NCBI RefSeq assembly: GCF_009914755.1
Contig: NC_060948.1
Direction: 5' to 3' (one strand)
Length of the DNA: 64,000 nucleotides
DNA from: the human T2T-CHM13v2.0 reference genome, Homo sapiens
Numbering within the stretch: the stretch's first letter is position 1; every line of letters starts with the position of its first letter. The position numbers and the translations under genes were made by a program. Shown in pieces: positions 4,200 through 57,698 of the stretch. The notes beneath the pieces are model-generated. The model was not told the DNA's origin, did not search any database, and was given only the letters and a program-made list of their open reading frames with translations.

Positions 4200-4201
<2 letters not shown>

Positions 4202-4237
<36 letters not shown>
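4202..4237. repeat. (GT)n microsatellite in array unit 2
   Basis: Pure gt run at the position paralogous to 1707-1752. Confidence 0.9.
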
Positions 4238-4238
<1 letters not shown>

Positions 4239-27859: not shown

Positions 27860-28145
27860 GATGGCCAGGCTAACTGGCTAACACTGTGGGCCAGTGTGGA
27901 AGGGTGAGGCACCTGGACTGCTTGAGCCCCGGGCTTTAATGTCAGTTTTGTCAATGTGGTGAGATCCTCTCTCTACAAAAATATAGGGGAAAAAACTTAG
28001 CTAGATATGGTGGTGCATGGCTATAGTTGCAGCAACTCAGGAAAATGAAACAGGAGAATTGCCTGAGCCCAGGAGTTTAAGGCTGTAGTAAGCCATCATC
28101 TCACCTATGCACTCTGACCTCATAAGAGCAAGACTCCAACCCAAC
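27860..28145 (+). mobile_element. Degenerate old Alu
   Basis: 'tctctacaaaaat', 'ggagaattgcctgagcccaggagtttaaggctgtag'. Confidence 0.7.
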
Positions 28146-29564
28146 AAAGGAACTGAACAAGCAATTTTTAGAATGGGACACCAGGGAACCACTACCAGGG
28201 GACCTAGGAAATGGAAGAATTCATTAGATGAAGAAGACTACAATCAAAGAATACTGCTAGGAACTGTTAGAATTATTAAGGGGAATTCTCTAGCAAACAC
28301 AGGATTAAAAGTAATGTTGGCCTCACTCTAATAACTTATTTCACCTGCAATGAGAAGCTCAAGTATTTCTTTACCATAAATCTGAAATGTAGTTAGTGAT
28401 ATATAAACCATAATAAAAGGTATCAGTCTGAATTATGCCCATGTATGTGTCACTCCTCTTTCGTTCGATGAAGTTAAAGTTAAGCATTCAAGTAAAATAG
28501 CTTATTTTTAGTCATACGAAAAATACTGTCTTTCTCTCTGGTAGCACTTACCTTGGCCTCCCATCCAACTACTGCTTCTTGCCACAGCAGGAGCAGATTT
28601 TGTAGGAGGAGGACCTCCACTTCTTGAAGGTGGACCGCTTTTAACTGGAATGTGCCCCCTAGAAGAACTCATGTTGAGATCAAGAGTTTATCCACCATCA
28701 TCTGTATTTCAAACAAAATCTTTTTAGTTGACTAACATCACTGTTTCTTAAATAGCTAAGTTTTAGTTGTTTATAAAGATTTTCTACATATTATAATCTT
28801 ACAAATTCACATTTGTCTAAACTAATAAAATTAACATTTTTATATGAAATAAGTACAATTCAAGCAATAAAAGTCCATTTAGAAAATCTAGAAAGAAACA
28901 CAAGAATCATAATATGTTTGCGTGAGAGAGAGATGTGGAAAAAGTGGGGAGTGAACAGGGAGCAGAAAACTATCAGTAAAATATCTAAGTATAATATATA
29001 TAAAAACATTGAAAGAAAAATGATAAATGACTGTTTATATCATTCTCTTATGAGGAAAAATTTTCAAAGCATATCATAAAGATAAACTAAATTCCATTCA
29101 AAGAAACTCAGATATTTACAATATCAAAAGGTGACACATCAGGAAAATATATTATCTCTAAAATTTGTTAACATAATATTGAATTCTTACAATTCCCTTA
29201 TGAAACACTAATTTTCAGGTTAGACTATGCTAAATATTAATAATCTTTAAGAATTCCATATTAAATAATATGAAAAAATATTTTTATATATCTACAAAAA
29301 ATGTAGATATATGCCAATTGCCAGGCAGTGTTACAGGTTAGAATATGCACATTCTTATCCACGGCAGAATATTATTGAACCTCACCCTCAAGACCAATGG
29401 AGACAAAATAATCATGAAGCTGTGTTTCTTAAAATGGAGCAAACACTGCAATTTCAACTTTAAAAAACATCTCCCATTAATTAAAAATCTGGTTACTAAA
29501 CTCAAAATTAAATGATATATATTTGAAGGTTGATTAGTAGATAATAAAAGTTTAAAAATGGATT

Positions 29565-29720
29565 TATTATTTATTGAGATGGACTCTTGCCATATCCCAC
29601 AGGCTTGAGTGCAAAGTCGTGACCTTGGCTCACTGCAGCTTCCACCTGCCAGTTTTCAGTGATTCTCCTGCCTCAGTCTCCCGAGTACCTGGGATTAGAG
29701 GTGGAAATCACCACACCAGA
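29565..29720 (-). mobile_element. Alu right monomer
   Basis: gagatggactcttgc ... ctcctgcctcagtctcccgagtacctgggatta; it breaks into the AT minisatellite at the linker position. Confidence 0.85.
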
Positions 29721-30488
29721 TATATCTATATCAATATCTATCTATATATATAATATGTTTATATTATATATAAATACATGAAATATATTTATTTCTATAT
29801 ATAAATACATGAAATATATATATTTTCATACATAAATACATGAAATATATATATTTTCATATATGAATACATGAAATATATTTATTTTCATATATGAATA
29901 CATGAAATATATTTATTTTCATATATGAATACATGAAATATATTTATTTTCATATATGAATACATGAAATATATTTATTTTCATATATAAATATATAATA
30001 TATTTATTTTCATATATAAATATAAATATATTTATTTTCATATATAAATATAAATATATTTATTTTCATATATAAATATATATTTATTTTCATATATAAA
30101 TATATAATATATTTATTTTCATATATAAATATATAATATATTTATTTTCATATATAAATATATAATATATTTATTTTCATATATAAATATATAATATATT
30201 TATTTTTATACATAAATATATATTTATTTTTATACATAAATATATTATATATTTGTTTTTATATATAAATATATTATATATTTGTTTTTATATATAAATA
30301 TATTATATATTTGTTTTTATATATAAATATATTATATATTTGTTTTTATATATAAATATATAATATATTTATTTTTATACAAATATATAATATATTTATT
30401 TTATATTTATATATAAATATATATTTATTTTTATATAAATATATAATATATTTATTTTTATATATAAATACGTTATATATATATATAT
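29721..30488. repeat. AT-rich minisatellite (~23-31-bp units)
   Basis: Units 'tacatgaaatatatttattttcatatatgaa' grading into 'tataaatatataatatatttattttcata'. Confidence 0.92.
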
Positions 30489-33402
<2,914 letters not shown>

Positions 33403-33792
33403 TTTTATTTATTTTTATATATAAATATATAACATATTTATTTTTATATATAAGTATATAAAATACATTTATTTTTATATATAAGTATATAAAATACGTT
33501 TATCTTTATATAGAAATGCATAAAATATGTTTATCTGTATATAGAAATGAAAAAAGTACATTTATCTGTATATAGAAATGCATAAAATACGTTCATCTGT
33601 ATATAGAAATACATAAAATACGTTTATCTGTATATAGAAATACACAAAATATGTTTATCTGAATCTAGAAATACATAAAATACATTTATCTGTATATAGA
33701 AATACATAAAATATGTTAATCTGTATACAGAAATACATAAAATACCTTTATTTTATAAAGAAATATATAAAATTATAAATATATATACAATA
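33403..33792. repeat. AT-rich minisatellite (~29-bp units)
   Basis: Repeats of 'aaatacataaaatacgtttatctgtatatag'. Confidence 0.9.
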
Positions 33793-34305
33793 TATGGTTT
33801 GATTTTCTTTTTTATGTAGAAATAACCCCTTATTTCTTTTGTGTAAATCACTCATGAATATCATTTTCAGAGACTCATCCTTCAGCAAAGAAAGATATAT
33901 AGATATGTGTGAAGCAGTAGTTCTTAGACATTTCCAGAGTCACAGACTGTTTTCAGAAATTAAAGTTCTACATTTCTTCAATTGAAAACGCTTTATGGCA
34001 AGCCAATGTACAAACTCTGTTTATCAAAATTACAAAGCGATTCATCTGCATAGATGTTTGCACAGGTATACACACATAAAAAATGAAATATTGAAAAATC
34101 AATCTTAAGTACTGAGTTACTTTTTTCCCATTTGAAAACTGTAAATATTCCATTGTATTTTGATAATAAAACTGATTTGAATTTCTGGGCCCTGGAGTAG
34201 AAAACTCTAAAGTATAATAAATATAAATGAGTTATGCAGAAAACCAGTTGAGTACAGGCAATCAGCATTCATAAAATCAATTCAGTTTGAAATCTGTGTT
34301 ATTTC

Positions 34306-39019
<4,714 letters not shown>

Positions 39020-39763
39020 GAAATCTGTGTTATTTCAATGCAAAGTTGTTACAATTTTAAAATGAATTTTAGATATTAATTCAATCATTCTTATAATACA
39101 CCTTTAGTAATTAGAGATAATTGTGCTTATCAATAATTAATATTCTGCTCATAAAGATAATAAATAAAATTGAGAAATTTTGATACCTTCAAACTTGTTT
39201 TCTTTCAGTCCCATGGTTCCACCTTTATATTTTAAAACATTACCCAAGTGTTCTTCATGTGAGGGCAGCCACGCTCTTTTTCCTCCACTACTTCCTCTTG
39301 CAGATCTCAGATTTGCTGACGGGCTTCTGTTTCTTGAAGAAGGTGGTGGTCTCCGCCTACCACCACTTTGAAAAGACGGTTTTTTGGCTTATTCTACTTT
39401 TATTGCTTTTCGATCCAAAGACTAAAAGTACTAAGGGTACCATCAATAACATTGGCACATTTAACATAAGCACATTTACAAACATTTTTACATCAACTAC
39501 AGTTCATAGTTAATTAGGTGACAGGAAAATGTTGGAAGAAGTGTTTTGAAGTCACTTTGTCTTTAAAAATGCTTTACTTGAGCAAGGACTAAACCGTTGA
39601 GGAAGTAATCTAGGAATATATTTGGAGGAAGAGAATTCCAGGCAGAGAAAATAACCATTGAAATAATTCTGAAACTAGAATTAAGCAAATAGTCATACTG
39701 CCATCATGTGGCAAGATGAACTAAGGAAAACTCTTAAGTGAGATCAAAGACAAATCCTTTTGA

Positions 39764-40343
39764 TTTTATTCTGAGTATAATTCCGGCTACTGGGAGAACA
39801 AACTAAGCTACACGTGAGTGTCCGAATCAAGCAGAGAGACCAAACAAATGATGATGCTTCAACAAATGTAATGGCAGAGGAGGTGATACACACAGTCGTT
39901 TCATGTGACTGTATAAACCGTATACTTGGCTGAGGGCATAAGTAATAGTCAGATAATGATGTTGAATATGTAGGTGATTTTTTATTGTTACAACTTTCCT
40001 CTAAATTCCCTCTAGTATTTGGTTTTACTCTTTTAACCAGAGTTTCAATTATTTATGCCTAAGTGTTATATGGAACTCATTAGGTATGTACCATGTAAAA
40101 TTTCTTACTGTCCATCCAGTAATATAAAATTTGCATGTGATAGAAAAGTATAATTTATATGTTTAAGTTAATATTTTATAATGTATGTATAAACCCCTTG
40201 TTATATAGCTAATTTATAAATATAAGTGTTCCAAAACATATATATGTATCTGTATACTTTATAATATATATGAATTGCATATAGATGAAATGTATGCATT
40301 ATATATATTTTAATTCATGTATAGTATATGTCTATATGTATTT
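39764..40343. repeat. Direct repeat copy 1 (~580 bp) flanking an L1
   Basis: Colinear with 43169-43772: 'ctgagtataatt..ggctact.ggagaacaaact', 'caaatgtaatggcagaggaggtga', 'ttatttatgcctaagtgttatatggaactc'. Confidence 0.9.
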
Positions 40344-43168
40344 TTTATATACTTTAAGTTCTGGGGTACATGTATCGAACGTGCGGTTTTGTTACACTGG
40401 TATAAACCTGCCATGGTGGTTTGCTGCACCCATCAACTTGTCACACACATTAGGTATTTCTCCTACTGCTATACCTCCTCTAGCCCTCCACCCCTGGCAG
40501 GCCCTGGTGTATGATATTCCCCTCCCTGTGTCCATGTGTTCTCATTGTTCAACTGCAACTTATGAGTGAGAATATGTGGTGATTGGCTTCCGGTGCTGGT
40601 GTTAGTTTCCTGAGAATGGTGCTTTCTAGCTTCACCCATGTCCGTGCAAATGACATAAACTAATCTTATTTTATGGCTGCTTAGTATTCCATGGTGTATA
40701 TGTGCCACATTTTCTTTATCCAATCTATCATTGATGGACATTTGAGTTGGTTCCATGTCTTTGCTATTGTGAACAATGTGTCAATAAACGTAAGTGTGCA
40801 CGTGTCTTTATAGTAGAATTATTTATAATCCTTTGAGTACATAACCCATAATGACATTGCTGGGTCAAATGGTATTTCTAGTTTTAGAGCCTTGAGGAGT
40901 CACCAGACTGTATTCCACAGTGGTTGAACTAAGTTACACTCCCACCAACAGTGTAACAGCGTTCCTACTTATCCACATCCTCTCCAGCATCTGTTGTTTC
41001 CTGACTTTTTAATGATAGCCATTCTAACTGTCATGAGATAGTATCTCATTGTGGTTTTGATTTGCGTTTCTCTAATGACCAGGGATGATGAGCTTTTTTC
41101 ATGTTTGTTGACTGCATAAATGTCCTCTTTTGGGAAGTATCTCTTCATACCCTTCACTCAGTTTTTGATGGGTTGGTTTAGTTTTTTTCTTGTAAATTTG
41201 TTTAAGTTCTTTGTAGATTGTGGATATTGGTCTGTTGTCAGATTAATATGTTATCCCTTGTCAGATGGCAACTTTATGGTGATAGCATTGAATCTATAAA
41301 TTACTTTGCACTGTAGGGCCATTTTCATGATATTGATTCTTCCTATAATGAGCATGGAATGCTTTTCCACGTATTTGTGTCCTCTCTTATACCTTGAGCT
41401 GTGGATTGTAGTTCTCCTTGAAAAGGTCCTTCACATCCCTTGTGAGTTACTTTCCTAGGTATTTTATTCTCTTAGTAACAACTGTGTGTGTGAGATGACT
41501 GTGATTTGGCTCTCTGCTTGTCTGCTATTGGAGTATAGGAATGCTTGTGATGTATGCACATTGATTTTGTATCTTGAGACTTTCCTGAAGTTGCTTATAA
41601 GCTTAAGGAGATTTTGAGGTGAGACAGTGCAATTTTCTAAATATACAATCTTGTGATCTGCAAACAGAGACAATTTGATTTCTTCTCTTTCTCTTTGAAT
41701 ACACTTTCTTTCTCTTGTCTGATCGCCCTTGTCAGAACTTCCAAAACTGTGGTGAATAGGAATGGTGAGAGAGGGGGTAACCTTGTCTTGGGCAGGTTTT
41801 TAAATGGAAAGCTTCCAGGTTCTGCCATTCAGTATTATATTGGCTATGGTTTTGTCATGAGTAGCTTTATTATTCTGAAATGCATTCCATCAATACCTAG
41901 TTCACTGACAGTTTTTATCATGAAGTATGTTGAATTTTATCGAGGGGCTTTTCTGGATCTGTTGAGATAATCATGTGGTTTTTGTCATTGATTCTCTTTA
42001 TGTGATGGATTAGGTTTATTGATTTGTGCATGTTGAATCAGCCTTGCATCCCAAGCATGAACGTGACTTCTTCATGGTGGATACACTTTTTGATATTCTG
42101 CTGGATTTGGTTTGCCAGTGTTTCATTGAGGATTTTTGCATCAATGTTCATCAGAGACATTGGCCTGAAATTTTCTTATTTTGCTGTGTCTCTGTCAGAT
42201 GTTGATATCAGGATGATTCTGGCCTCATAAAATGAGTTAGGGTGGATTTCCTGTTTTTCTATTGTTTGGAATAGTTTCAGAAGGAATGGTACCAGCTCCT
42301 CTTTGTGCCTCTGGTAGAATTCTTCTGTGAACAACCTACTCTTCGACCTTTTGTTGTTGTTGTTGTTGATAGGCTCCTAATTACTGCCTCAATTTCAGAA
42401 CTTGTTAGTGGTCTATTCAGAGATTCGATTTCTTCCTGGTTTAGATTTTGGAGGGTGTATGCATCCAGGAATTTATCCATTTCTTCTAAATTTTCTAGTT
42501 TATTTGCATAGAGGTGTTTACAGTATTCTCTGATGGTAGTTTGTATTTCTGTGGGATCAATGGTGATATCCCCTTTATCATTTTTTATTACGTCTGATTC
42601 TTCTCTCTTTTCTTCATTAGTCTGGCTAGTGGTCTATCTATTTTGTTGATCTTTTCAAAAAACCAGCTCCTGGATTCATTGATTTTTTTGAAGTGTTTTC
42701 ATGTCTCTGCTTCCTTCAGTTCTGTTCTGATCTTATTTATTTTTGTCTTCTCCTAGCTTTTGAATTTGTTGCTTTTGCTTTTCTTGTTCTCTAGTTCTTT
42801 TAATGTTGATGTTAGTGTGCCAATTTAAGATGTTTCCTACTTTCTCTTCTGGACATTAAAAGTGCTATATATTTCCCTCAAAACACTGCTTTAAATGTTT
42901 CCCAGAGATTCTGGTATGCTGTGTCTTTGTCCTTATTGGTTTCAAATAACATCTTTATTTCTGCCTTCATTTCATTATGTACCCAGCAGTCATTGAGGAG
43001 CAGTTTGTTCAGTTTCCACATAGTTGTGCAGTTTTGAGTGAATTTTTAAATACTGAGTTCTAGTTTGATTGCACTGTGGCCTGAGAGACTGTTTGTTATG
43101 ATTTCTATCCTTTCGCATTTGCTGAGGATTGTTTTACTTCCAACTATGTAGTCGATTTTACAATAAGT
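40341..43168 (-). mobile_element. Older L1PA (PA7/PA8-like), 5'-truncated with an internal deletion
   Basis: 3'UTR 'tatactttaagttctggggtacatgt'; broken ORF2 pieces ([30 protein letters not shown]); ORF2 jump at ~41268. Confidence 0.92.
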
Positions 43169-43772
43169 GTTTACTCTGAGTATAATTCTGGCTACTAGGA
43201 GAACAAACTGCAAGCTGCAAGTGGGCATCAGAATTAAACAGAGAGACTAAACAAATAATGATGGCATCAACAAATGTAATGGCAGAGGAGGTGACACAAA
43301 CAGTCATTTCACATGATCGTATAAGTTGTGCTTTGCCTAAGACTGCTTGGCTAAAGGCATAAGTAATATTCAGATAATGATGTTGAGTATGTAGGTAATT
43401 TGTATTGTTTAGAACCTTCCTCTAATTTCCTTCTAGTGCTTGATTTTACTGTTTTAACCACAGTTAGAATTATTTATGCCTAAGTGTTATATGGAACTCT
43501 TGAAGTATGTACAATATATTATTTATTACTGCCCATCAAGTAATATGAAATGTACATGAGATAGAAAAGTAAAATTTATACTTATAGTTTAGTATCTTTT
43601 AATTTAATATATAAGCCATATAAACTATATAATTTATTGATATAAGTATTCATAAACATATACAAGATATGTATCTGTATATTTTATAATTAATATATAT
43701 GTATTGCATGTATATGTAATTTATGCATTACATATTGTAATACATGTATACTACACATCTATGTGTATTTCT
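43169..43772. repeat. Direct repeat copy 2 (~600 bp) flanking the L1
   Basis: Paralog of 39764-40343; ends at TTTCT/AA. Confidence 0.9.
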
Positions 43773-43850
43773 AACATATATGGTTAACTTTGTTTCCAAC
43801 CATTCAGGTACAGCAAGGTCATCCTGTTCTTTGCCTCTTTGGCAGTCACT

Positions 43851-43926
43851 GCCTGGTCAGTGATACCTCAGTAGTAGGCCTGGTCAGTGATACCTCAGTA
43901 GTAGGCCTGGTTAGTGATACCTCAGA
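43851..43926. repeat. 27-bp tandem triplication
   Basis: gcctggtcagtgatacctcagtagtag x ~2.8, near-perfect. Confidence 0.95.
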
Positions 43927-45099
43927 AGCCTGTTATGACCCCGTTCTTGTCATCAGGACAGCCCAATACATATCTTGAATGAGATGGCTTATCAAGGCAT
44001 CCCAGAAACCACTGGGGGTATTTTTTTCTCTATCCTGCAATTTTTCTCCTGGAGTAGAAGATAGTCCACAAAATACAGTTACCTCTAATACAGGCTCTGA
44101 CAATTTGATCTTTCATGGATTCTCAGAACAAATAAGGAGGAGAAGATTAAGCACTTCCCCAGTGTACAGAAAGCACCGGAACCCCCACTGAATGTTTTTT
44201 TTTTTTTTTGGTTAGAATAATAGAGATTTTTTCATGCCAATAGACTATTACACTTTCAAAGTGGTCACCTCTCCTCAGCTAGCAAATTCCCAATGGTACA
44301 ATCCCGGATTTCTCCTGCTGCCAAACCACGGGATCATCCTGGTACAGCTGAATGCTGGAGTACCCCAGAAATGGAAACTTCTCAATATTTCTTTTTTTTT
44401 CTGGACTCCAGAACTCCCAAACAGATATTAAACCTATAGCCTGGAATTTTCCTGAGAAAAATACAATGGATTATAAATATTAAGCTGTGACTGATTCAGC
44501 AAGATTCTGGATTAATACATTAGCTAGTACAATTAGGCTTCATACTCTACCATTAGTTAATGCTGGTACATCCTGGTTTCTCTTTTCAAGTGGGATAGGT
44601 GAATCTCAAGTTCCTGTTAAGATGGATACTGGTCAGTCTCAAGTTCAATTTATTAATGTTCCATCTCATGGACAACTTGTAGCTAAACCTTGGCTAGAAA
44701 TTACTCCTGAAGTTGAAACTTAGAAACAATTTTTAGCTTATAAAACAGGAACAGTGATGCAGATTAAATCCAGTGAAGAGAGTACTAGAAACCAAAAGTA
44801 TCATGTAGCTCATAGAGTTAACCCTGGTGCAAAACCAGCAACTTACAACTAGATTCCACCAGTACTTTTCATAGTTAATAAAATTGAAATATGGACTCAT
44901 TGATCACTCAATGAAGATGGATCTCAGCATCCTACAGTAACCCATACCTTTGAACCATGGTGTCAGCTAGTGTTGAATATATTTGTATCCCCAAGAAATT
45001 ATAGAAAGGACAGATGGATACTAGATTCTCACTGAACCTGAGTCAACTCAGTTCTGGATTTCTTCTATACTGCATACTCTTCATGTGCAAAGTTAAAAG

Positions 45100-48000
45100 G
45101 TGACAATATTAGGGCTTGGACACAACAGAAAACCAGTATAATGAGGCCCTCAAATCAAATAGATAGATTGAGTCCATTGAGTAAACATGTGGCTATTATT
45201 ACTGAAACCCCTGATGCAGACATGAATCTTAATACATCCTATTATGAATGCAATTGAGCCCTCAATTCACTCCAAAGTTGAGATGATCAAACCCTGAAAG
45301 CAGCCTAAAACAGCCATAGTCCTAACATGGATCTAGTCAGAAACTCAATCAGGAAGACTCTTGACTCACCTGAAAGCTGATACAATTAAACAACAGTTAC
45401 AAATTGAAATAGAAAGAATGAGACCTTGGATTCAGCATAAATTTAAAATACTGAGGCCCAGAACCCAGACTCAAGAATGGAAAGAAAAACACTGGACCCA
45501 ACCAGAAGCAGATCCAGTTAGGTACTGGTCCCAAACTGGGATGGAAACAGTGGTACCCAGGCCCCAAACTGGAGGTGATAGATCCAGACCCTGAAATCAC
45601 ACTGAAGCTGATATCATCAAACTTTTGTTTTGATCTCAAGCAGAGACAGTCACACAGTGGAGAGAACCAGTAACTCTGACAAATCAGCATTGGATACAGT
45701 CTGAAACTGAAATATTGAGGTTTTGGAACCAACCTGTGACTGATAAGTTAAGAGACTGGATACAACATGAAGCTTATGCATTTAGACTCTGGGGCAAGTT
45801 TGAAAGTGTTAAAGTTAGATCGTGGACCCAAGCTGAAGATGACACTTTGAGACCCTGGAATCAGAAAGACATTGGTGTAATTGACCCCTGGGTACAAAGT
45901 AAAGCTACCGTACTAACACAATGGATGCAGGGAGAGTCTCAAGAATTAAATCCCTGGACACAATCTAAAACTCACACAGTCCCACTGTGGACCCAGACTG
46001 AAACTCCAATAGTAAACTCTTGGACCAAGATGTTAGCAGATACAGTCACAACATGGACAAAGGCTGAATTTCAAAAATTAACATCCTGAAGACAGTCTGA
46101 AACTGATCCAATCATACTGTGAACTATTGCCAAATCTCCAGCAGTGAATCTCTGGACACATTCTGTATCTGATAAAGTCACATGTTGGAACCAAGAAGAA
46201 TTTCCAGCCTTATTTCCCTTGACATATTCGTATAGCTAAGACAGTCACACCATGGATCCAGGATAGATTTACAACAGTGAATCTCTGGGCAAAAACTATA
46301 GCTGAAACTGTCATACCATTGACCCTTGATGAAATGCACCAATAAATCCATGGAAAGATTGCAGCCTGAATATCTAGAAGGAAATAACTTACTCCCATCT
46401 GAATTTAATCCAGTCTCATTGTGGACCATGGCTTATTTGCCAGCAGTAAATTACTGGATACAGTTTGATACTGAGGCAATAACACTGTGAACCCAGATTG
46501 AGGCTCCAGCAATACATTCCTGGAAACAGTAGGTAACTGATATAATCACACTAGGGACCAATGATGAATCACTAGTGATGAATTCATGAATATATTCTCC
46601 TATATCTGATACAGTCATAATAATGTGTATCTAGGCTGAATCGCTATTATTACATCGTTGGAAACAGTCTGAAACTGATATACTCACAACATGGATTCTG
46701 GCTGAAACTCTAGGAGTAAGTCCCTGGGCACATGATATATTCCTATCATGGACCCACCCTGAACATCCACCAGTATCTTGGACTCAAACATGGATTCTGG
46801 GTGAAACTCCAGCAATGAATCCCTGGAGAGAGGCTACAGCTGATATGGTCCTACCAAGGAATTAGGCTGAACTTAAAGAGGGAAATGCATGGACAAAGTC
46901 TGAAATGTATACAGTCACAGAGTGGATCCTGGATAATTCTCTAGCAGTAAATTCATGGACACAGACAACAGTTGATGCAGACAAGCTGTGGACCAAGCCT
47001 GAATTTTCAGCCGTAAATCCCTGGGCAGTCTCTGGGTGATAGTACTATACTGTGGATTCAGGATGACTCTCCAGCAATGAATCCTTTTACACAGTATCTA
47101 TCTTATAGAATCAAACCATGGGACCAAGATGAATCTTCAGCAGTAAAGCATTTGACACAGGCAATAGCTTATACAATCAAACTCTGGAACCAAGTCAAAT
47201 TACCTGCCATAAATCTCTGGAAACAATATGAAACTGATACCTTCATACAGTAGACCAAGACTGAATCTCCAAAAGTAAATGACTGGACACAGCCTATACC
47301 TGCTGCAGTTATACCACAGAACCAAGATGAACCTGTAGGAGTAAATCCCTCCACAAAGCTTGAAACAGAAATTGTCTTACTGTGGACCCAGGCTCATTCT
47401 AAAATCAATAATCTCTGTACATATACTTATTGATAGAGTGAAACCATTGGCTAAGAATGTTTATGTAGTAGTAAATCTATGGAGACAGTCTAAAACTGAG
47501 AAAGTCACATCATGGACCCAGGATCTGTTGCCAGCAATAAGTCACTTAGCATTGGCTGTAACTCATATAGACACACTGCAGTACACGGATGTATTTCTAA
47601 TAATAATTCTCAGGAGAGAGGCTCTAGCTGATATATTCATAACATGGACACAGACAAAATCACCAGCAATCAATTTCTGGTTACAACCTGTACCTGATAC
47701 AGTCACACTATGGACCTAAACAAAATATCTATAAGTAAACACTTGGAATGAGGCTGAATTTCCAGCTGTAAATCCCATGATGCAGTCTAAGTCTCTAATT
47801 GTAAATATCTGGACAGAGTCTGAATGTTCAGTCCCAAGTCCTCTGTTACAGGATGAGACTGACACAGTCATACCATGGACACAGACTGAATTTTTGGCAG
47901 TAAATCCATGGACCAAGTCTGTTGCTGATACATTCACAGTGTGTACACAGCCTGTAACTCCATCATTAATCTTCTTTTCATAAAGTTTACATGGTACACT

Positions 48001-50650
48001 TAAAGCAGGGCATCAAACTGAATGTCTACCAGTAAATATCTGGACAGAGGCTGTAGCTTCCAAAGTTATACCCTGGACCCAGGCTGAATTTCCAGCAATA
48101 AATCCCTGGACACAGCCTGTTTTTTATACAGCTACAACTTGGGCACAGGCTGTATCTGCAACAGTAAAGGCCTGGGCACAGCCTTCATCTAATACAATCA
48201 GATTATGGTCCCAAACTGAATCTGCAGCATTAATTACATGGATCCTGCCTGTATCTGAGACATACATAGGATTGATCCAATTTGAATCTTCAGCAGTAAA
48301 TCCTTGGATACTGCCTATATCTAATACATTATCACTGTGGACCCAGCCTGTATCTCTAGCAGTCAATCCATGGATAGAGGCAATAGCTACCAAGTCACCC
48401 CATGGATCAAAGCTTTACTTCTAGCAACAAATCCCTGGATACATTCTGTATCTGATATAGTTGCACTGTGGGTGCAGGCTGAATCTTCTGCAGTCATTAC
48501 CTCCACACAGCCAGTATCTGACAAAATTATACTGTGACTTCTGGCCCAGTCTCCAGTAGGAATTACCTGGACACAGACTGTATCTGATATACTTATATCA
48601 TGGAACTATGATGAAACTTCAGCAGAAAATCCAGAGGCATGCATGGGCTGAGAAACTGCATGGGCTGCAGTTTCCTCAGTGTTACCATGGACCCAGGGTA
48701 TCCCTTCAGCAGGAAAAACCTGGACACTACCTGTGTCCAAATCAATCACCCCATGATCTCAGTCTGAGTCTCCAGTGGTAAACACATGGACAGAGGCCAC
48801 AGCTTCCACAGACACAAAGTGGACTCATGATGATTTTCCAGATGCAAATTCTTATACACAGAGTGATATGGGCTCATTTTGGATGATGGTTAAAACTGAA
48901 GCTAAGAAACTCTAGGCACTGCCTGAAGCTAAAATATTTATAGAGTTTCCTTGCTGCCTTAACCTTATACTACGCAACTTTTGATCCAAGATGAAAATCA
49001 AGCATCTATTTTATGGACACATCATGAAATTGAAAATATCGATGAATGGACCTTGCCTGAGTTTGGAACACTTATATCCTGGATACTGGCTGTGCCTCAA
49101 GCAGCAAAACCATGGTCCCAACCTGAAGCTCAAGTTAAAGAACTTCGTTTAAAACTGGAACAGAAAAAATAAAACCTTGGGCTCAGTCAGAATTTCAAAC
49201 ATTGAGCACGTTTACTCCCTTTGGACCTGGTAAAATAGAATCCTGGGCCAAACAGAGAACTACAACATTTATAACATGGATCCAGTCTGAAATTGATGGC
49301 TTCTTCCTGTGTACCCAATCTGAAGTAGGTACAATGAGATCCCAGACCATTTCTGAAGCTCATACAGTAAAACTATGGATCCGGTCTGAAGCAGGCACAA
49401 TCCACCCCTGGACTCAAGGCAACATTAATACAATCATTGTCTGACACACTATTATATCTGGCTGAAATGCAGGCAGCAAAATGCTTGACCATGCCTGACA
49501 TTAATACTCTGAGTGCTTGGTTTCAGACCCAAAACAATGTAAGAAGAAGTGGTACTCAACTTTCTTCTCAAAGAGTTACTACCTGGATGAAGCCAGAATG
49601 GCAAATAATCCGCCCATTGAACCAATCTGAAAAGAATGCAGTCATACCCTGGACCCAGTCTGAAGGTGATGTTCTGAAACCTTGGATCTATGCTGAAACC
49701 AATACAGTCAGACACGAGACACATTCTGCAACTGATAAAATAGAGCAATGGACTGAGCCTGAATCTCAAGCAATTAGGATGTGGCATGAGGTAGGTATGG
49801 TGACATGTTGGTCCCCAACTCATAACGCTTCTGTTTGGCCCTGGACCCAACTTGGATCTCAAATGACACACTCCTAGATCCAGAATCAAGTTAGCATAAA
49901 TTATTCCTGGACTCAGCATGTACGTGCTACAATCAGACCATGGACTTACTCTGAAATTCATCCCTGGACCCACCCTGAAGACAATATAGTGATAAGATAC
50001 CTGTTCCAGACTCAAATGAATTCAGTAAGATCCTGGAACCAACCTGAAACTGAAGTTTTCCAAATTTGGACTGTAAGCCAAGGAATAAAGCCCTGAAACA
50101 TGACTGAAATTGATACAGTCACATCTTGCTTATAGACTTAATGTGATACAGTTAGACCCTGGATTCATCCTGAAAGTCAGCTGCTCTTTCCCTGGCCACT
50201 GACTGAAGTTGGTACATTTTGGACCTGGACTCAGCCAAGAGCTGCTACATATCAAACCTGGACCCACCTTGAAACCCAAGCAGTGAGACCCTCGATCGAG
50301 CAGGAAACTAATATAGTCAGATCTTCATTTTACATTCAAATGAATAAAGGCAGATCATGGGTTTATTCAAAATCTCAAACAGTCAGTCCCTGGATCCAGC
50401 TGGAAGTTGACATAATTCACCATTTTATCCAGTCTGAAACCTTCTTACTAAGATTCTGACCCAAGATTCTACCTCCAGTAGTCAAAACACGGACCTTGCT
50501 TATAGGAAGAACACTCGTATGTTGGATACTGCCTGTAACCCAAGCAGACAGACACTGTATCCAGTCTGAAGCTGATATTATTGAATCCTTTGCTATTTTT
50601 AAAGCGGGAAAAGTAAGAACATGGATCCAGCCTGAAACAGAAATACTAAG
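45100..50650 (+). repeat. Cryptic 33-bp (11-aa, Trp-periodic) coding repeat; 66-bp higher-order unit in the centre
   Basis: Translations show W every 11 residues, e.g. RFWNQPVTDKLRDWIQHEAYAFRLWGKFESVKVRSWTQAEDDTLRPWNQ; DNA motifs 'aatccctggacacag' and 'acagtcacaccatggacccaggctgaa' recur throughout. Confidence 0.92.
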
Positions 50651-52259
50651 ACCCATAAACCATTTTAAGGCTGATATAATTGCATCATTTTCTCCTCCTG
50701 AAATTGAGCCTAATGGAGAAACACTATTAACGAGTCATTTTGGCTCCTTGTCTAAACATGTGCTCTTTTTGCCAGTAAAAACTGTTTCTTACCCAGATCA
50801 GTATTTTATCTTTGTTAACTGAGATAACTGCCACCGAAAGCCAGGATAAAATCAATTCTCTCCAGTTGAGCCAGCGTACAAGTACTTGGTTTCCTGGAAG
50901 AGTGTTTACCAGCACTACGGCAGGAAATTAAAAATTATCCAGATAAAAGAAAGCCCTGATGTCCAGGTACCTCTCTTATCTCTCTTTCTTCCTCCATTTT
51001 CCTTCCTCTTTCTTATTCTCTTCCATCTCCATGTACACTGTGCCCTTCTTGTTCAGTCTTTTCTTCTTGTACATTCCCTTCATTCTTCATTTTCCCATCT
51101 TGCTCAGTTATTTATCCTCTGGTCTCCTCTCTTGTTCTCCTATCCATAGCCTCTTCTACTAATGTTCTTCAGAAAATATCTTCCTCAACATTTCCTGAAG
51201 AGTCCATTATTTCTCATTCTTTTTCATCCTTGCATGCTGCTGCAGCCACACTTTCAACAAAACAACTTCTCCTGATGCCTGGATTTCAATCTGGACCCAA
51301 TCCTGGACAAAAACCTCTTAAGCAATCAGAACTCAATGTTTCCCGGTTGAGTGTCAACTAGCTGTAATCTGGAAGTTTCCAGGCTTTCTGGCTCTTCAAG
51401 ACAGCTGTTATTTCTCATGAAACCACAGGCACCTTTAGACTAGTCATATGTGTGAGTTAATATACTTGCTACGAAGACTCTTGTTGAACCCTAAAACCAC
51501 AGTTTGTAAGATCAGAGGTTATGTCCTCAAACCTTTGCAAAACCAAAATTTAGATTATTGTATGAATCAGCAGAGATGTCTAAATATTGAGAGAATATCT
51601 TACTTTTGCCAAACAGGATTTATGGGCTATGTTTTATAAACACAATTCTATTCAGAGAAGAGTATTTTTAAGATAGTCTTACTTCTTAGAAATGGTTTAT
51701 TATTCCACTTGAAGTATATGAATATATACACCCACAACTGGATAATACTATAATATCTTGGATACAATAATAAGATATATTATATATTTATATATACATT
51801 AAATTATCATTTGAAGGGAAAGTATCCAAATAACCTCTGTAGCATATCTAAAATTGTAGCATGAATAATGTATATTTCCAAGTATTTTCTCAGAATTGAA
51901 GATACTGAATTTCCAAGAACATTCCTAAAAACCTAAAATTATATTTTATAAATAGGATAGTAGTAACACTAATCTCACTCTATTCCACATGTGTATTCCT
52001 TCTGCAGAGTGTGGATTATGCCCTGGCCATATCACCCACTGTCACAACCGCTGGGAGTCAGAAATTGGTGAATTCTCTTGAATAGTTTCTGTACAACGTT
52101 CTGTCTCCCATTTCTGTGCTGGCTCCATACTAAATGAACACTATTTCCTTACTACAGCTAGATGTGTCAATTTTATGTAAGTCTAAGAAATTTATCTTAA
52201 GATTAAGATATCATTATAAAGCAATAATAACATTGAGATTCTAAAGGAATATATTTACC

Positions 52260-52261
<2 letters not shown>

Positions 52262-52302
<41 letters not shown>

Positions 52303-52345
52303 CTATGTGACAGAAAGAGACAGAGAGAAAGAGAGATAGAGACAG
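52262..52345. repeat. (GT)n plus (GA)n microsatellite
   Basis: Seen directly. Confidence 0.92.
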
Positions 52346-52536
52346 GGTCTTGCTCTATTGCCCAGGCTGGAGTGCAGTGGCGTGATTCAGAGTAGCCTCA
52401 AACTACCAAGATTAAGGAGTTCTCCCACCTCTGCCTCCTGAGTTCATGGGACCACAGGCACATACCATTGCATCTGGCTAATTTTTTTTCAGCAGAAATA
52501 AAGTCTTATCATGTTGCCTACCTGGTCTCAAATGAT
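52338..52536 (-). mobile_element. Degenerate Alu fragment
   Basis: gacagggtcttgctctattgcccaggctggagtgcagtggcgtgat. Confidence 0.85.
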
Positions 52537-55316
52537 CCTTGAAAATAGTTTCTAAAGGAGTATTTGTACTTTAGTGCTTACCTGGACTTCATCTGATTCA
52601 CGTGACCTCCAGGGCTTTATTCAAATTGAAATGTAGAAATAATAAGACTTTTTCTTGACTTTTTTTTCCCCTGAAAAAACTCAGCAGCCCTGGCCCTGGT
52701 CCAAGTGGAGCTTAATCATCTTCTAGATTCTGCCCAAGCTCAGACTGTCAGCATTGACTGTGCCATACCCTACCTAGGTTCCAAGTGATTCTGTGACCTG
52801 GGTTGATCTTCCTGAAGCAGCCACCATATTTTCAACCCCTGGTCCTTCCTATATGCCTGAAGGAAAGTCTGGAACAGGAGAAATTTATACAACTATATGA
52901 CTGTTGGCTATCTAGTTGGTCCCTTATGTGGGCTGAGTAATGAAGAAGACAGTGGGATGAAAGAGAAGCATGTTTGGAAAGAGAATATTATTCTCTCTTG
53001 AATAATAAAGTATTTGTCTTTCTCTTCACCATATTCTCTCTCTAATCTAGGCTAAGTATGAAAACAAACACAAAAACCTCTTCTCTGTTTTCTATCAAGG
53101 AGTCCTGGAATTATGCAGAAACAGCACCTGAGCATCCTACAAGTCAGCACTTGTAACCAATTTTGCCCAAAACTAAATGAATTCACTTTTTGTGTGGAGG
53201 CCAAGAAAGCTACGTGGGAGCCTGGCTGTAAGTTGACAAATTCATGGGGTGTGAATGCCAGGGAGAAGAAGGAATATCTTGAACACCAAAAGTTACTTCC
53301 GGCCATCCTTCAAAATATTATTTCCTTGGAAATTGAGGGATCTCTTTTGGTCTCATGAATTAAATGTGCATTTAACCACAGCTATTTTATAGCTACCCCT
53401 ATTTCTATAGCTACAGTGAATAATATATTTAAAACATAAAGGAGGCCATAATTATTTGCTCACATCCTCCAAGTCTAATTCAAAGAAAACTACATGTAAG
53501 ATATTAGTTATGCTTCTAATTTCATCTCTACTTGCTTACCCTTTCTATAGACAGGTTATCTCTCTATATATATTCAGGAGCATTGCTTCAACTCAATTTT
53601 CTGAGGAACTCTAAAATCATTTCAAAAATATAAGCTCTTTTCTGAAACTCAAACTTGAATTTTCTATTTAAACTATTGGATTGGTATCTCACGAACACTA
53701 TACGTTTATGAAGATAAGCCCTCTCTAATTTAGAGACAGGTGCTTTATCTCCAGATTTTTCACTATTTATCTAATAGCTTCAAATCATTGCATTTTTTGT
53801 TGCCTATCTACTTCAATGACTTCTAAGTAGCTAAAATCATAGATAAATAAATGTTGCAATGGGGGAGAAAGCTGGAATGACTCCCAGTATTTTGACTAAA
53901 GAAACTTAAGCTAGGACATAAAGAAACTATGATCTTGGAAAGATAATAAGAACACTTATTTTCAAGAAAAATGCATAAACACAAAAGAGGTAGAAGTTTG
54001 TCCTTGCTAGTCATATTTCTCAATGCTGACTTGGTTAGCAGAAATAGGAGGGATTTAAAACTTTAAATAATGGTCTACAGATGGCAATTCTATTCAAATT
54101 AGCACATTAGCTTATTTTTCTCCTCAGCTTCAGCAGATCAGATTTCTCTGCAATATGCCATGCCTTGGTAGGCTGGGATCATCAGCTGTGGCAGTCAGGT
54201 CTGCAGTGGTTCCGTAGTTAGTAGCTCTTGGGTTCTCACAGCTGCCCACTATGTCAGGAACATGTAAGATTGTGCCTGCCTCTTCCAATACCCTGTAATT
54301 CATTATCCTATAATTACATTGCTGAAGGTTTCTGTGTCCAAATTCACTTCAATAATGCATGACCATCTCACTTCTACAGATATCATTTTTGTTTTAGGCT
54401 GAAAAGAAATTGCTTTACTGTGGCTTACTAGTACCTCTGTTAGTTAATTCCTCTGCAATCCCATTGTCTGTGGGATTTATTCATATATTTCTGATTTCTC
54501 TGAAGATGAGCTAGGGACCTTGTGTATCATGACTAAAAAATATGCTAGAAAGCCTGATGTACGTGTAAGGTTCAGGTTTTCTAATGAATGTACCACAATA
54601 AATCTTTGCCTATGCACACAGGAATCCTGAAGACACCGCTGTGATTCTGGGCCTGAGGCACCGTGGGGCATTATTGAGAGTTGTGAAGGTGTCTAGTATT
54701 CTATTGCATGAGAGGTTCCAGTTGGTCAGTGGGGCAGAAGGAATGACCTGGCATTACTACTCCTCCAAGATGTCCAGACTCCCATTTGGCTCTTAGCCCC
54801 CTTGGGCTATCTGAAGAACCTGAATAGTTCAGCATGCCGGCTCTCTGGGCCACAAATTATTACACCAGGTCAGTGGTTAGTTTTCTTATTTGGGTAGCAG
54901 TTCTAAAAAATGAGGTTCATATTTTTAATATTATGGTTCAAGGAAGAAGTACAATCACAATTGTATATATTACTAAGTGTAAGATATTTAATCCACATAA
55001 GAGACCCAATAGGAGATTTGTTTTCATTTTATAAGATGATGGCTCTGATGATAACTTCATAGGATTTTAGATCCGAAAACAATTACATGAGGATCTTTCC
55101 CTGTACAGTCAATTTTGTAAACTAAAGTAGAGATGATTTGCTTTCCAACTCTTTGCTGACTTCAAAACAAAGGAAAAAGGAGTTTTTTTGTTTGTTTTGT
55201 TTTTCCCTCTTTATGAAAATTAAACTGAACTTGACTTGGCGTTTAGAATTTCATAAGTAAAATTTACTTGTTACTTTTGAAGAGTGGCATTTAGAAAGTG
55301 ATTAAAGAGTGATGAT

Positions 55317-55618
55317 GCTGTCCGCAGTGGCTCACTCCTATAATTCTAGCACTCTGGGAGCTTGAACTAGGAGAATCCTTTGGGCCCAGGAATTTGATAC
55401 CCACTTGGGCAATATAGCAAGGCTTCATCACTAAAGAACAACAACAACAACAACAACAAATAGCCTGGTGTGGTGTTGCACACATGTAGTCCCAGCTACG
55501 TGGGAGGTTGAGACAGGAAGATAGCTTGAGACTGAGAGTTTGAGGCTGCAGCATGTGAAGGTGGTGCCAATGCACTCCAGCCTGTGTGACCACACAATAA
55601 CTTGTCTCAGAAAAAAAG
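55317..55618 (+). mobile_element. Old Alu with (CAA)n linker
   Basis: cagtggctcactcctataattctagcactctggga ... cactccagcctg. Confidence 0.85.
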
Positions 55619-55623
55619 AGAGG

Positions 55624-55922
55624 GGGCTGGTGTCGTCGCTCATGCCTGTACTCCCAGCATTTTGGGAGGTTGAGGCCAGCGAATAACCTGAAGTCAGGAG
55701 TTTGAGACCAGTCTGACCAACATGGGGAAAACCCATCTCTACCAAAAATATGAAATTAGGCAGGAGTGGTGGTGTGTGCCTGTAATCCCAGCTACTTAGA
55801 AGGCTGAGTCAGGAAAATTGCTTGAAACCAAGAGGTGGAAGTTGCAGTGAGATCAGGCCACTGCATTCCAGGCTGAGTGACAGAGTGAAACACCATCTCA
55901 AAAAAAAAAAAAAAAAAAAAAA
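55624..55922 (+). mobile_element. Alu SINE with long poly-A
   Basis: Full dimer directly after the previous Alu. Confidence 0.92.
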
Positions 55923-57698
55923 TGAAGTCACTAGAAAGAGAATGAAATTATTGGCTATAAACTGAATTTCTTTCTATAAGTTATACATACAAGTTTAAAG
56001 TAATAATGATACAGTGATAGACAATTCATGGTTTTATCTCAATACTTAGTGTTTAATTGTAAAATATGTTCTATAGGATAGCTATACTCCATTTTTCTTT
56101 CTAGGGGAGACTTATGAGAATCCAGAAATGTTAAAGACGCAACTAATGCAAGCTTCCATCTGTGCCCACCTGGATTCTGACATAGGCAGCTCCATTGTTT
56201 GCTTTGTTACTGAGGCCAAAGACTCTAATGCAAATGTGGTACACAGTCAAAAATTTTTTTTCTAGCTACTATAAAACTATAGTAACTAGTTTTATAGTAG
56301 TTCTATAGTGATAGAAACTATAACTTTGTTCCTATATACAAGGGTATACAGCATATGCCTAAATGATAAATTTAAGTGAATCATTGATTAACAGGAAACC
56401 ATTTTAAAAGTCTTCAATTGCAGAAAAAATCTCTGAAAACACTTTGTTGTTAATCTCTGAGTTTTCTTACATGGGTCACTAATCTCTAGCCATGCTAAAT
56501 TGCTGGCATGCTGCCCTTGAAACAAATTAGACATTTTATATAATTCTCATATTCTAATAATAGTATCTTTACACCTCAGAGTTTAAAATGAGTCTAACCT
56601 TTTCCTATTTCCCTAATTAAATAACTTTTTTAAAGTTTAATCTTCAGTGATTTTTTGTAGTAATACTTTTGAATGTATTTCATCAGGATGATTTACTTAT
56701 GTAGTTACCTGATGTCTCACTTTCTTCTGAATGCATATTTTTTATCCATTTATTAGATCTAAGTTTAAGAAGTTGGAATAGGGATTTAAATCCAAATTCT
56801 ACGTTTGAATTTACAGGAGTCAGTGAGTCTAGGAAGTGCCGTTATTTGTAGACCAATATCTGGCAATGGCAGTTGGAGACAAATAAGCTTCAATAGTCTC
56901 AAAGCCCTAGCTACTACAGTGAGTTCACACCTCTCCTGGGTCATATCTACTTCAGCAAAAGAAGGCCACCCACTAAACTAGGCCTTTATGCCTTGGGTGT
57001 AAACTCCTAAGTCCTCTAGTCTCCTTAAGCAGCCAACCACAGTGCCACTTACTTCAATAATAATTACTGCACCTCTGAGACTTTCGTAGCCTTGTGACTA
57101 TAACTAGTGATGCTAGAGTCTGGTCATAGTATGATAAAACACCAGAGCAATAAAAACAAAATATTGACTTAAGCCTCCTAAAATCTCTCTAAATATACCT
57201 TCAATAAATATGCTTTTTCTACATAACAACTGCTTTCTACTTACTTCCTGAACTAATGCTTGGCCTTGGATTATTTTCATTCTTGAAATTGATTCAAAAG
57301 TGTATATTTAACATGAGGGCGAATACAGAATTTCATATGTCAGCAAATAAAATTTTCAAAGTGATGCAAAATACAAATGTGAACTTGTGTTTGTGAACTT
57401 TACTATTCCTTCAAATTAAATGCTCATACCTACCCACTCACACAATTTTTTATAACTATCTGCATGTTCTTCTCAGGTGGGAGAAAACAGTATCAGAGTT
57501 CTTGAATAATTTATGGAAGTCAGAATGACAATACTATACAAGGTTTAACCTATTCACAATACTGTATTTAGTGAATGAAGACATGACTTTTAAAATCCTA
57601 CTAAAGTATTAAGTAAGTAAAATATATGATTTCAATAACTCTAAAATATGTGTACATGAAGAAAATAGATCAAGGATTAAAATACGTAAACAACAAAT

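What the first reader, a model, noticed from the sequence alone, without database searches (positions are those of the whole stretch)
45100..50650. Hidden ~5.5-kb coding repeat with a tryptophan every 11 residues
Seen: no long ORF survives, yet the short ORFs stitch into one reading (e.g. 45361 and 45715 share a frame) with W at strict 11-aa spacing, consensus ~(R/N)PWTQ(P/S/A)E.DT(V/I). By length this is roughly 160-170 units (estimate from 5.5 kb / 33 bp). Many stops fall exactly on the Trp position (RP* at 45592, TS* at 46087), as expected if TGG decayed to TGA/TAG in a once-translated repeat. Inference: this encoded a very long solenoid or fibrous Trp-ladder, or a Thr/Ser-rich glycosylated stalk, of a sperm protein. 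I know of no named repeat family matching it.
Basis: partly seen in the sequence, partly recalled or inferred. Interest (0 to 1): 0.88.

Follow-up and report, generated by a model that had tools for sequence, protein, structure and literature searches.

The report
Decayed giant exon of PRSSLY pseudogene
The hidden repeat with a tryptophan every 11 residues is real: it is the broken giant exon of PRSSLY, a Y-linked testis protease-like gene that is intact in many mammals but already known to be a pseudogene in humans.

Summary
Window 45,286-50,678 is a degenerate array of about 163 33-bp units. A position weight matrix (PWM) detects 137 of them, and 95 of those 137 carry TGG at the same codon. 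The array also shows a 66-bp super-period.

The array is not an orphan. It is the core of a 7.6-kb giant exon (43,808-51,427) of a PRSSLY pseudogene. Six downstream blocks of trypsin-like exons follow, up to 57,065.

A profile built from the human fragments finds intact proteins with the same repeat in bats, sheep, beaver and murid rodents. All of these carry Pfam Trypsin domains. Hughes et al. 2022 (PMC9178871) already reported transcribed PRSSLY pseudogenes on the human Y. Their human model is the paralogue at chrY 10.24 Mb, not this copy, and RefSeq annotates nothing here.

The family is Y-only in this genome, at 13-14 loci that differ by 9-19%. Decay looks neutral:
- dN/dS between copies is 0.90-0.96.
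- 11 of 19 stops sit on the Trp codon, as mutational opportunity predicts.
- Nearly all lesions are specific to one copy or one clade.

What seems unreported is the repeat itself. It has an 11-residue Trp motif that is shared across orders and matches no Pfam family. The fold is unresolved: the one AlphaFold2 model collected has pLDDT 42.

The parts
43808..51427 (+). Giant exon (the 'upstream ORF') of a PRSSLY pseudogene. It starts just after a cag acceptor at 43,805-43,807. Its end is set by homology; the next two bases are GC, not GT.
   Evidence: tblastn of P0003 and P0006 is colinear from 43,808 to 51,427. The sequence at both ends was read.
43808..44185 (+). C-terminal end of an upstream trypsin-like domain, fused to the start of the giant exon. 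It contains one in-frame stop.
   Evidence: 53% identity to P0003 residues 96-207, E 5e-36.
43851..43925 (+). 27-bp tandem repeat, 2.8 copies. It amounts to a 9-residue triplication inside that trypsin-like end.
   Evidence: TRF score 143. It appears as an insertion relative to P0003.
44227..45285 (+). Weakly periodic 5' part of the upstream ORF.
   Evidence: 40-45% identity to P0003 and P0005. Scattered PWM units.
45286..50678 (+). Array of 33-bp (11-codon) Trp units with a 66-bp super-unit. It spans about 163 unit lengths; 137 units are detected; it carries 19 in-frame stops and 8 frame shifts.
50613..51427 (+). Non-repeat tail of the giant exon, with stops and frameshifts.
   Evidence: 39-53% identity to P0006 residues 241-558; 46% to the P0002 tail. 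Its relatives in this genome are on chrY only.
52001..52177 (+). First exon of downstream trypsin-like domain 1. It has TGA at a Trp codon and reads LTTARC where trypsins have TAAHC.
   Evidence: 64% identity to P0006 557-615. The stop is private to this copy.
52675..53232 (+). Further exons of trypsin-like domain 1, with intron sequence between them.
   Evidence: P0006 616-746; the core 52,797-52,928 is 89% identical.
54106..54264 (+). Exon of trypsin-like domain 2, with one stop.
   Evidence: 75% identity to P0006 840-892.
54623..54873 (+). Exon of trypsin-like domain 2, with a frameshift near 54,737.
   Evidence: 82-87% identity to P0006 893-976 in two frames.
56104..56235 (+). Exon of trypsin-like domain 2.
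   Evidence: 64% identity to P0006 975-1018.
56817..57065 (+). Last exon: end of domain 2 and the hydrophobic C-terminus, with two stops.
   Evidence: 63% identity to P0006 1020-1102.

Best explanation
The 33-bp array is the core of the giant 'upstream ORF' exon of a dead copy of PRSSLY (protease, serine-like, Y-linked).

In mammals that keep the gene, this exon encodes a region of one to several thousand residues. The region is built from 11-residue units of the form [V/I/L]-x-[P/L/S]-W-[T/I]-Q-[P/S/A/T]-[E/V]-[S/T/A]-x-[T/A/I], often alternating as a 22-residue pair. Two trypsin-like domains and a hydrophobic C-terminus follow it.

In the human lineage the whole gene was duplicated to 13-14 Y loci, and every copy examined is broken. 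This copy, and its near-identical inverted partner at chrY 5.97 Mb, now evolves neutrally. TGG and CAG codons turn into stops, and small indels shift the frame. The exon therefore does nothing as a protein today.

Shown here: the homology, the exon anatomy, Y-only multicopy status, and neutral, mostly copy-specific decay.

Taken from the literature: testis and post-meiotic expression of intact PRSSLY, and low-level transcription of the human pseudogenes.

Inferred: the repeat formed an extended, possibly beta-rich spacer or binding surface carrying the protease-like domains in spermatids or sperm, with Trp as the selected residue.
For: 1. Profile search. A profile of 20 in-phase 88-residue human fragments was run against 1.84 billion representative proteins. 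It gave 109 hits at E<=1e-3 and 6 at E<=1e-30. P0001 (3058 aa) scored 6e-110 with 40 matched stretches, and P0002 (2357 aa) scored 1e-89.

2. Domain content. P0006 has Trp repeats, then the tail, then Pfam Trypsin (E 1e-41) and a second protease-like domain. P0110, P0111, P0113 and P0114 also carry PF00089.

3. Colinearity with the window. tblastn of P0006 and P0003 covers 43,808-57,065, with 63-89% identity in the trypsin exons.

4. Source names. P0006 is LOC107505200 (Rousettus aegyptiacus), P0111 is LOC132658999 (Ovis aries), and there are further hits from Rhinolophus sinicus and Castor canadensis. P0001 is 76% identical to 'Serine protease 55' of Apodemus speciosus and 62% identical to rat 'Tmprss9l1'.

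5. Literature. PMC9178871 (abstract, section 5, Discussion, supplement 2 part 1, and term searches over all 9 supplements) describes giant single-exon ORFs upstream of a trypsin-like domain, and transcribed human, chimpanzee and rhesus pseudogenes. Fruit bat and sheep are among its PRSSLY species.

6. Link to the published human model. A 28-base motif from that model occurs in L005 and L011, the 10.24 Mb paralogue, which is 86.5-87.8% identical to this copy.

7. Y-only. Relatives of the array, the tail and a trypsin exon lie only on chrY.

8. Decay. The window has 19 stops and 8 frame shifts. dN/dS to five paralogues is 0.895-0.963, and third codon positions are not faster.
Against: - No database record that I retrieved is actually named PRSSLY. 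The names are 'uncharacterized protein', 'Serine protease 55' and 'Tmprss9l1'. Equating them with PRSSLY therefore rests on the paper's description, its species list and its human model.
- I could not align the paper's mouse-lemur, bull or mouse sequences directly.
- The exons for the start codon and for most of the upstream trypsin-like domain were not found in 28,000-43,800 at E<=5.
- The giant exon ends at GC rather than GT.
- RefSeq lists no gene here (hub table).
- dN/dS near 1 does not by itself show loss of function. The paper reports Ka/Ks near 1 for this ORF even in species where it is intact.
Confidence: 0.95

Rival explanations
1. It is a non-coding 33-bp minisatellite whose unit happens to lack stops in one frame. 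The Trp ladder would then be an accident of translation.
For: A repeat unit that is open in one frame gives a long 'ORF' automatically. A GC-rich 33-bp minisatellite on chr4 also reads W every 11 residues by chance. Some third codon positions (columns 7 and 9) are better conserved than first positions.
Against: The same repeat is an intact reading frame of 1000-3900 codons joined to trypsin domains in bats, sheep and rodents. Between intact orthologues W is kept in 69-93% of aligned positions, against 36-65% for other residues. Conservation across the 33 columns is very uneven: 1.25-1.57 bits at TGG against 0.04-0.96 elsewhere. The irregular unit spacings shared by both clades of human copies (60, 93, 93, 60) are all multiples of 3.
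Confidence: 0.01
2. The locus still makes a protein, either from one of the surviving short ORFs or by recoding of stops.
For: Stop-free stretches of up to 151 codons survive in the window array. The paper reports low-level transcription.
Against: There are 19 stops of all three kinds and 8 frame shifts within 5.4 kb, and more in every trypsin exon block. There is no sign of constraint between copies. Each copy carries different lesions. [quoted passage not shown]
Confidence: 0.02
3. The pseudogene transcripts have been co-opted as non-coding RNAs, like the neighbouring TTTY genes. This reading does not exclude the pseudogene reading.
For: Low-level transcription is reported: 0.13-0.23 TPM in two testis and two of three brain samples, in the passage of Additional file 6 shown. 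The copies sit among testis lncRNA genes (hub table) and are kept in 13-14 copies.
Against: Copies differ by 9-19% and no column or region is spared. The expression values are near the noise floor. Multicopy status follows from lying inside Y amplicons and inverted repeats.
Confidence: 0.04

Closest known systems
PRSSLY (protease, serine-like, Y-linked) and its human, chimpanzee and rhesus pseudogenes (Hughes et al. 2022, BMC Biol, PMC9178871)
   Same: Y-linked. A giant single exon lies upstream of trypsin-like exons. There is no X copy. The ORFs are truncated. The published human model is a paralogue of this copy.
   Different: This copy (chrY 10.15 Mb in T2T-CHM13, with a twin at 5.97 Mb) is not the published model and is not annotated in RefSeq. 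The paper calls the giant ORF free of identifiable domains and homologous only between close species. Here it resolves into an 11-residue Trp repeat that a profile detects across orders.
PRSS55 and the PRSS family of testis serine proteases
   Same: Trypsin-like domains are present. The paper states that PRSS55 is the closest paralogue and is testis-specific (abstract).
   Different: No relative of the array or tail was found off the Y. A trypsin exon found nothing off the Y at E<=0.1. The relation to PRSS55 was not tested here.
Giant repetitive coding exons such as MUC16 and other mucins (comparison made in the paper; mucin features recalled)
   Same: One exon of many kilobases encodes a degenerate tandem repeat rich in Thr, Ser and Pro.
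   Different: The unit is only 11 residues, with an invariant-type Trp, Gln and Glu. It is not a Pro/Thr/Ser mucin unit. No glycosylation evidence exists.
Known 11-residue repeat proteins: apolipoproteins, alpha-synuclein, perilipins, LEA proteins (recalled, not tested)
   Same: Period of 11 residues.
   Different: Those are amphipathic helices without Trp or Pro. Here Pro or Leu precedes Trp in most units. The low-confidence model draws strands, not helices. There is no sequence match to any solved structure at E<=1.

Membership tests
PRSSLY gene / pseudogene | Located on the Y in eutherians, with no X homologue | tested here: met
   The window is chrY. Relatives of the array, the tail and a trypsin exon are all on chrY, apart from chance hits on chr4, chr8 and chr1.
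PRSSLY gene / pseudogene | Most of the ORF lies in one giant exon upstream of the protease domain | tested here: met
   43,808-51,427 is colinear with P0003 and P0006 without introns.
PRSSLY gene / pseudogene | [quoted passage not shown] | tested here: met
   Six exon blocks from 52,001 to 57,065 match the Pfam Trypsin region of P0006 at 63-89% identity.
PRSSLY gene / pseudogene | Sequence identity with a published PRSSLY sequence | tested here: inconclusive
   Only a 28-base motif of the published human model was checked. It lies in the 10.24 Mb paralogue (L005, L011), which is 86.5-87.8% identical to this copy. Full published sequences could not be brought into the tools.
PRSSLY gene / pseudogene | Orthologues in species where PRSSLY was reported | tested here: met
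   Best full-length relatives come from Rousettus aegyptiacus, Ovis aries and rat. Fruit bat, sheep and rat are in the paper's species list. The records themselves are not named PRSSLY.
PRSSLY gene / pseudogene | PRSS55 is the closest paralogue | not tested
   Stated in the paper's abstract. No tree was built here.
Processed or unprocessed pseudogene | Disabling lesions in the reading frame, with introns retained | tested here: met
   The array has 19 stops and 8 frame shifts. Stops or shifts occur in all but one (56,104-56,235) of the trypsin exon blocks. The exon-intron layout is kept.
Any curated protein repeat family (Pfam-A) | Match to a family model | tested here: not met
   No family matched five window fragments at E<=1, apart from a chance Frtz hit at E 0.098. 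No family matched the repeat part of P0001-P0005.

The most novel reading that the evidence does not exclude
The PRSSLY 'upstream ORF', described in print as lacking identifiable domains and alignable only between close species, is a previously undescribed 11-residue (22-residue paired) tryptophan-repeat protein domain. It is shared by primates, rodents, bats and ruminants, with selection acting mainly on the Trp.

The 13-14 human Y copies descend from an ancestor whose giant exon was still open. PRSSLY would then have been amplified as a coding multicopy testis gene in early anthropoids, like other Y ampliconic genes, before all copies died.
Probability: 0.35. Interest if true: 0.55.

Novelty: already known. 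Interest (0 to 1): 0.33.

Why it matters
As a locus it is ordinary: one more dead copy of a gene whose human pseudogenes are already published. Three points have some value.

1. RefSeq annotates nothing here, so the 13-kb pseudogene (43,808-57,065) and its sister copies could be added to the T2T Y annotation.

2. The 11-residue Trp motif gives the first handle on the enigmatic giant ORF of PRSSLY. A profile built from dead human fragments recovers intact orthologues across mammalian orders. Trp is the residue that is kept. Both facts argue that the ORF is a real protein domain rather than filler, despite Ka/Ks near 1.

3. Lesions that are almost all copy-specific suggest that the gene was multiplied on the primate Y before it died. 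That bears on how Y ampliconic families arise and are lost.

Tried and rejected
- Tandem Repeats Finder found no array at min_score 30, so a PWM was used instead.
- Pfam on window fragments found nothing.
- My first ideas were PRY, the TTY2 family and X-linked ADGRG4. The TTY2 paper (PMC311066) is not held, and all three ideas were dropped once the trypsin-bearing orthologues appeared.
- The word-indexed search for longer proteins with one 145-residue fragment found nothing. The exhaustive profile search did.
- Some profile hits are unrelated low-complexity proteins without Trp periodicity (P0007, P0026, P0043, P0048). P0029 has its own unrelated 11-residue repeat.
- The chr4:1.544 Mb hit is an unrelated GC-rich 33-bp minisatellite.
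- A majority consensus and a Fitch reconstruction of the six copies cut in-unit stops from 19 to 6. They did not resolve frame shifts, because gap placement differs between pairwise alignments. A MAFFT alignment of all copies came out at 9194 columns and was dropped. I therefore rely on event-by-event comparison.
- AlphaFold2 on the 88-residue in-phase alignment gave mean pLDDT 42.3 and pTM 0.26. It drew eight strands, one per unit, and is too unreliable to use or to search with.
- A second AlphaFold2 job, on P0004 with 6 relatives, had not finished after 16 polls. Its result was never seen.
- The profile matched no solved structure at E<=1.
- The upstream exons were not found in 28,000-43,800.
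Full report
**Observation**

Over 45,100-50,650, base identity is 0.425 at lag 33, 0.455 at lag 66, 0.400 at lag 99 and 0.427 at lag 132. Six control stretches of the window give 0.265-0.269. A sliding scan finds the signal only between about 44,000 and 51,000. Tandem Repeats Finder sees nothing, because units are only about 42% alike.

An iterated 33-column PWM finds 146 units in 43,500-51,500, of which 137 lie in 45,280-50,650. The span 45,286-50,678 equals 163 unit lengths. TGG occupies codon 4 in 95 of the 137 units. A 66-bp model shows two alternating unit types.

**Identification**

Pfam has no match for the fragments. In the window's own genome every real relative is on chrY. The single chr4 hit is an unrelated GC-rich 33-bp minisatellite.

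I cut 20 stop-free, in-phase 88-residue pieces from the window and five sister copies and aligned them. I then searched the profile against 1.84 billion representative proteins. There were 109 hits at E<=1e-3, 30 at E<=1e-10 and 6 at E<=1e-30.

- The top hits are long proteins with the same Trp spacing. P0001 has 3058 aa and 40 matched stretches; P0002 has 2357 aa.
- P0006 (1109 aa) joins the repeat and a distinctive tail to two protease-like domains, with Pfam Trypsin at E 1e-41.
- Source names place these proteins in Rousettus aegyptiacus, Rhinolophus sinicus, Ovis aries, Castor canadensis, Apodemus speciosus and rat.

A search for 'PRSSLY' then led to Hughes et al. 2022 (PMC9178871). I read its abstract, section 5, Discussion and supplement 2 part 1, and ran term searches over the main text and all nine supplements. 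The paper describes:

- PRSSLY as a Y-linked, testis-specific protease-like gene;
- most of its ORF as lying in one giant exon with 'no identifiable domains';
- Ka/Ks near 1 in that exon;

A 28-base motif of the paper's 'Human (model)' sequence occurs in L005 and L011, the copy at chrY 10.24 Mb, and not in this window. That copy is 86.5-87.8% identical to this one.

**Anatomy in the window**

- The giant exon starts at 43,808 after a cag acceptor. It begins with the end of an upstream trypsin-like domain, which carries a 27-bp triplication at 43,851-43,925.
- A weakly periodic part runs to 45,285. The array follows to 50,678, then a non-repeat tail to 51,427. At that end GC stands where a GT donor is expected.
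- Trypsin-like exons follow at 52,001-52,177, 52,675-53,232, 54,106-54,264, 54,623-54,873, 56,104-56,235 and 56,817-57,065. They are 63-89% identical to the bat protein. Stops or frame shifts occur in all but one block, 56,104-56,235.
- Exons for the start of the gene were not found in 28,000-43,800.

**The family on the Y**

The array DNA has 42 matches, all on chrY, at 13 loci. One is a twin at 5.975-5.980 Mb, reported as 100% identical over the full length and in inverted orientation. A trypsin exon finds 14 Y loci and nothing else at E<=0.1. The tail is likewise Y-only.

Copies are colinear over at least 10 kb at 78-91% identity, and the flanks are as similar as the array. Pairwise differences within the array from this copy are:

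| Copy | Difference |
|---|---|
| 6.17 Mb | 8.9% |
| 10.24 Mb | 11.1% |
| 22.32 Mb | 12.6% |
| 22.79 Mb (one of four near-identical) | 16.2% |
| 8.55 Mb | 16.3% |

The 22.79 Mb and 8.55 Mb copies form a second clade.

**Decay**

In the Trp frame, dN/dS between this copy and the five others is 0.925, 0.895, 0.923, 0.963 and 0.942. Third positions are not faster than first or second positions. The shifted frames gave 0.60-0.76, so the estimator is not centred on 1, and the value shows only that constraint is absent.

*Stops.* The window has 19 in-frame stops in detected units: 11 at the Trp column and 5 at the Gln column. For all 19, at least one paralogue still has a sense codon, mostly TGG or CAG/CAA. 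The Trp-column excess is what mutational opportunity predicts, with an expected share of 0.34-0.53. Over six copies there are 58 distinct stop positions, 29 at Trp and 13 at Gln. None is shared by all copies, and sharing mostly follows the two clades.

*Frame shifts.* For 7 of the 8 frame-shifting spacings in the window, one or more paralogues carry an in-frame spacing at the same place, often through the same indel in two to four copies. The eighth, at 48,913-49,014, is out of frame in all four covering copies: 101, 101, 98 and 98 nt, against 33 residues in bat and sheep. It is the one candidate for an ancestral lesion. The stop in the first trypsin exon is private to this copy, and three other copies each have their own indel there.

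**The repeat in intact orthologues**

Gaps between successive Trp residues that are multiples of 11, compared with the maximum seen in shuffles:

| Protein | Multiples of 11 | Maximum in shuffles |
|---|---|---|
| P0001 | 59 of 123 | 17 |
| P0002 | 38 of 82 | 13 |
| Sheep | 57 of 83 | 13 |
| Rhinolophus | 35 of 61 | 11 |
| Beaver | 22 of 41 | 11 |
| Apodemus | 69 of 161 | 22 |
| Rat | 70 of 162 | 23 |

Column preferences around Trp are the same as in the human relic. Between intact orthologues, Trp is kept at 69-93% of aligned positions, against 36-65% for other residues. One caveat applies: the scoring matrix favours aligning W with W. Bat, sheep and beaver repeats align over 269-658 residues at 39-53% identity.

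In the paper's main text and nine supplements, 'tryptophan' and 'periodic' occur 0 times. 'Repeat' occurs only in unrelated senses. No held paper pairs PRSSLY with 'tandem repeat' or 'tryptophan'. The figures themselves are not held, so a dot plot may show the repeat without any words.

**Mechanism**

Today the exon is an inert relic. For the ancestral protein, the sequence suggests a long, regular, Thr/Ser/Pro-rich region with one selected aromatic residue per 11 positions, placed ahead of two protease-like domains. The first of those domains reads LTTARC in both bat and human, where trypsins have TAAHC. I read this directly from the sequences; the TAAHC motif itself is recalled.

The fold is open. 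AlphaFold2 on the in-phase alignment gave pLDDT 42.3 and drew one strand per unit. No solved structure matches. The second model was never returned.

Mouse mutants are fertile. [quoted passage not shown]

**Verdict**

The object, however, is a known pseudogene family. The residual novelty is the repeat architecture and the multicopy history.

Noticed in passing
G000 chr4:1,543,772-1,544,311 (L017 about 3300-4900, minus strand): A GC-rich 33-bp minisatellite (identity 0.69 at lag 33). It reads W every 11 residues in one frame and is open for about 265 codons. It is unrelated to PRSSLY and shows that a Trp ladder alone is not evidence of coding.
   Followed up: partly
window 43,851-43,925: A 27-bp tandem repeat (2.8 copies, 97% matches) triplicates nine residues inside the trypsin-like end of the giant exon, relative to P0003.
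   Followed up: partly
L012 about 6037 to L013 about 2634 (chrY 22.321-22.328 Mb); L009 4964-6916 (chrY 6.174-6.176 Mb): Two sister copies have their arrays interrupted by inserted or rearranged DNA: about 6.6 kb in the 22.32 Mb copy and about 2 kb without units in the 6.17 Mb copy. The nature of the inserts was not examined.
   Followed up: no
window 51,428-51,429: Where homology to intact orthologues ends the giant exon, the next two bases are GC rather than a GT splice donor.
   Followed up: no
P0006, P0110, P0111, P0113, P0114 (database records): Apparent PRSSLY orthologues are named inconsistently in public records: 'uncharacterized protein', 'Serine protease 55' (Apodemus) and 'Tmprss9l1' (rat). 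None carries the name PRSSLY.
   Followed up: no
window 52,001-52,177 and P0006 residues 557-615: The first downstream trypsin-like domain reads LTTARC in both the bat protein and the human relic, and GDLGAP in the bat. The usual His and Ser appear to be replaced, which would fit a non-catalytic 'protease-like' domain. The motif assignment is recalled, not tested.
   Followed up: no
chrY 5.9186 Mb and 7.9429 Mb: Two further loci match the trypsin exon but did not appear among the array matches. They may be partial copies that lack the giant exon.
   Followed up: no
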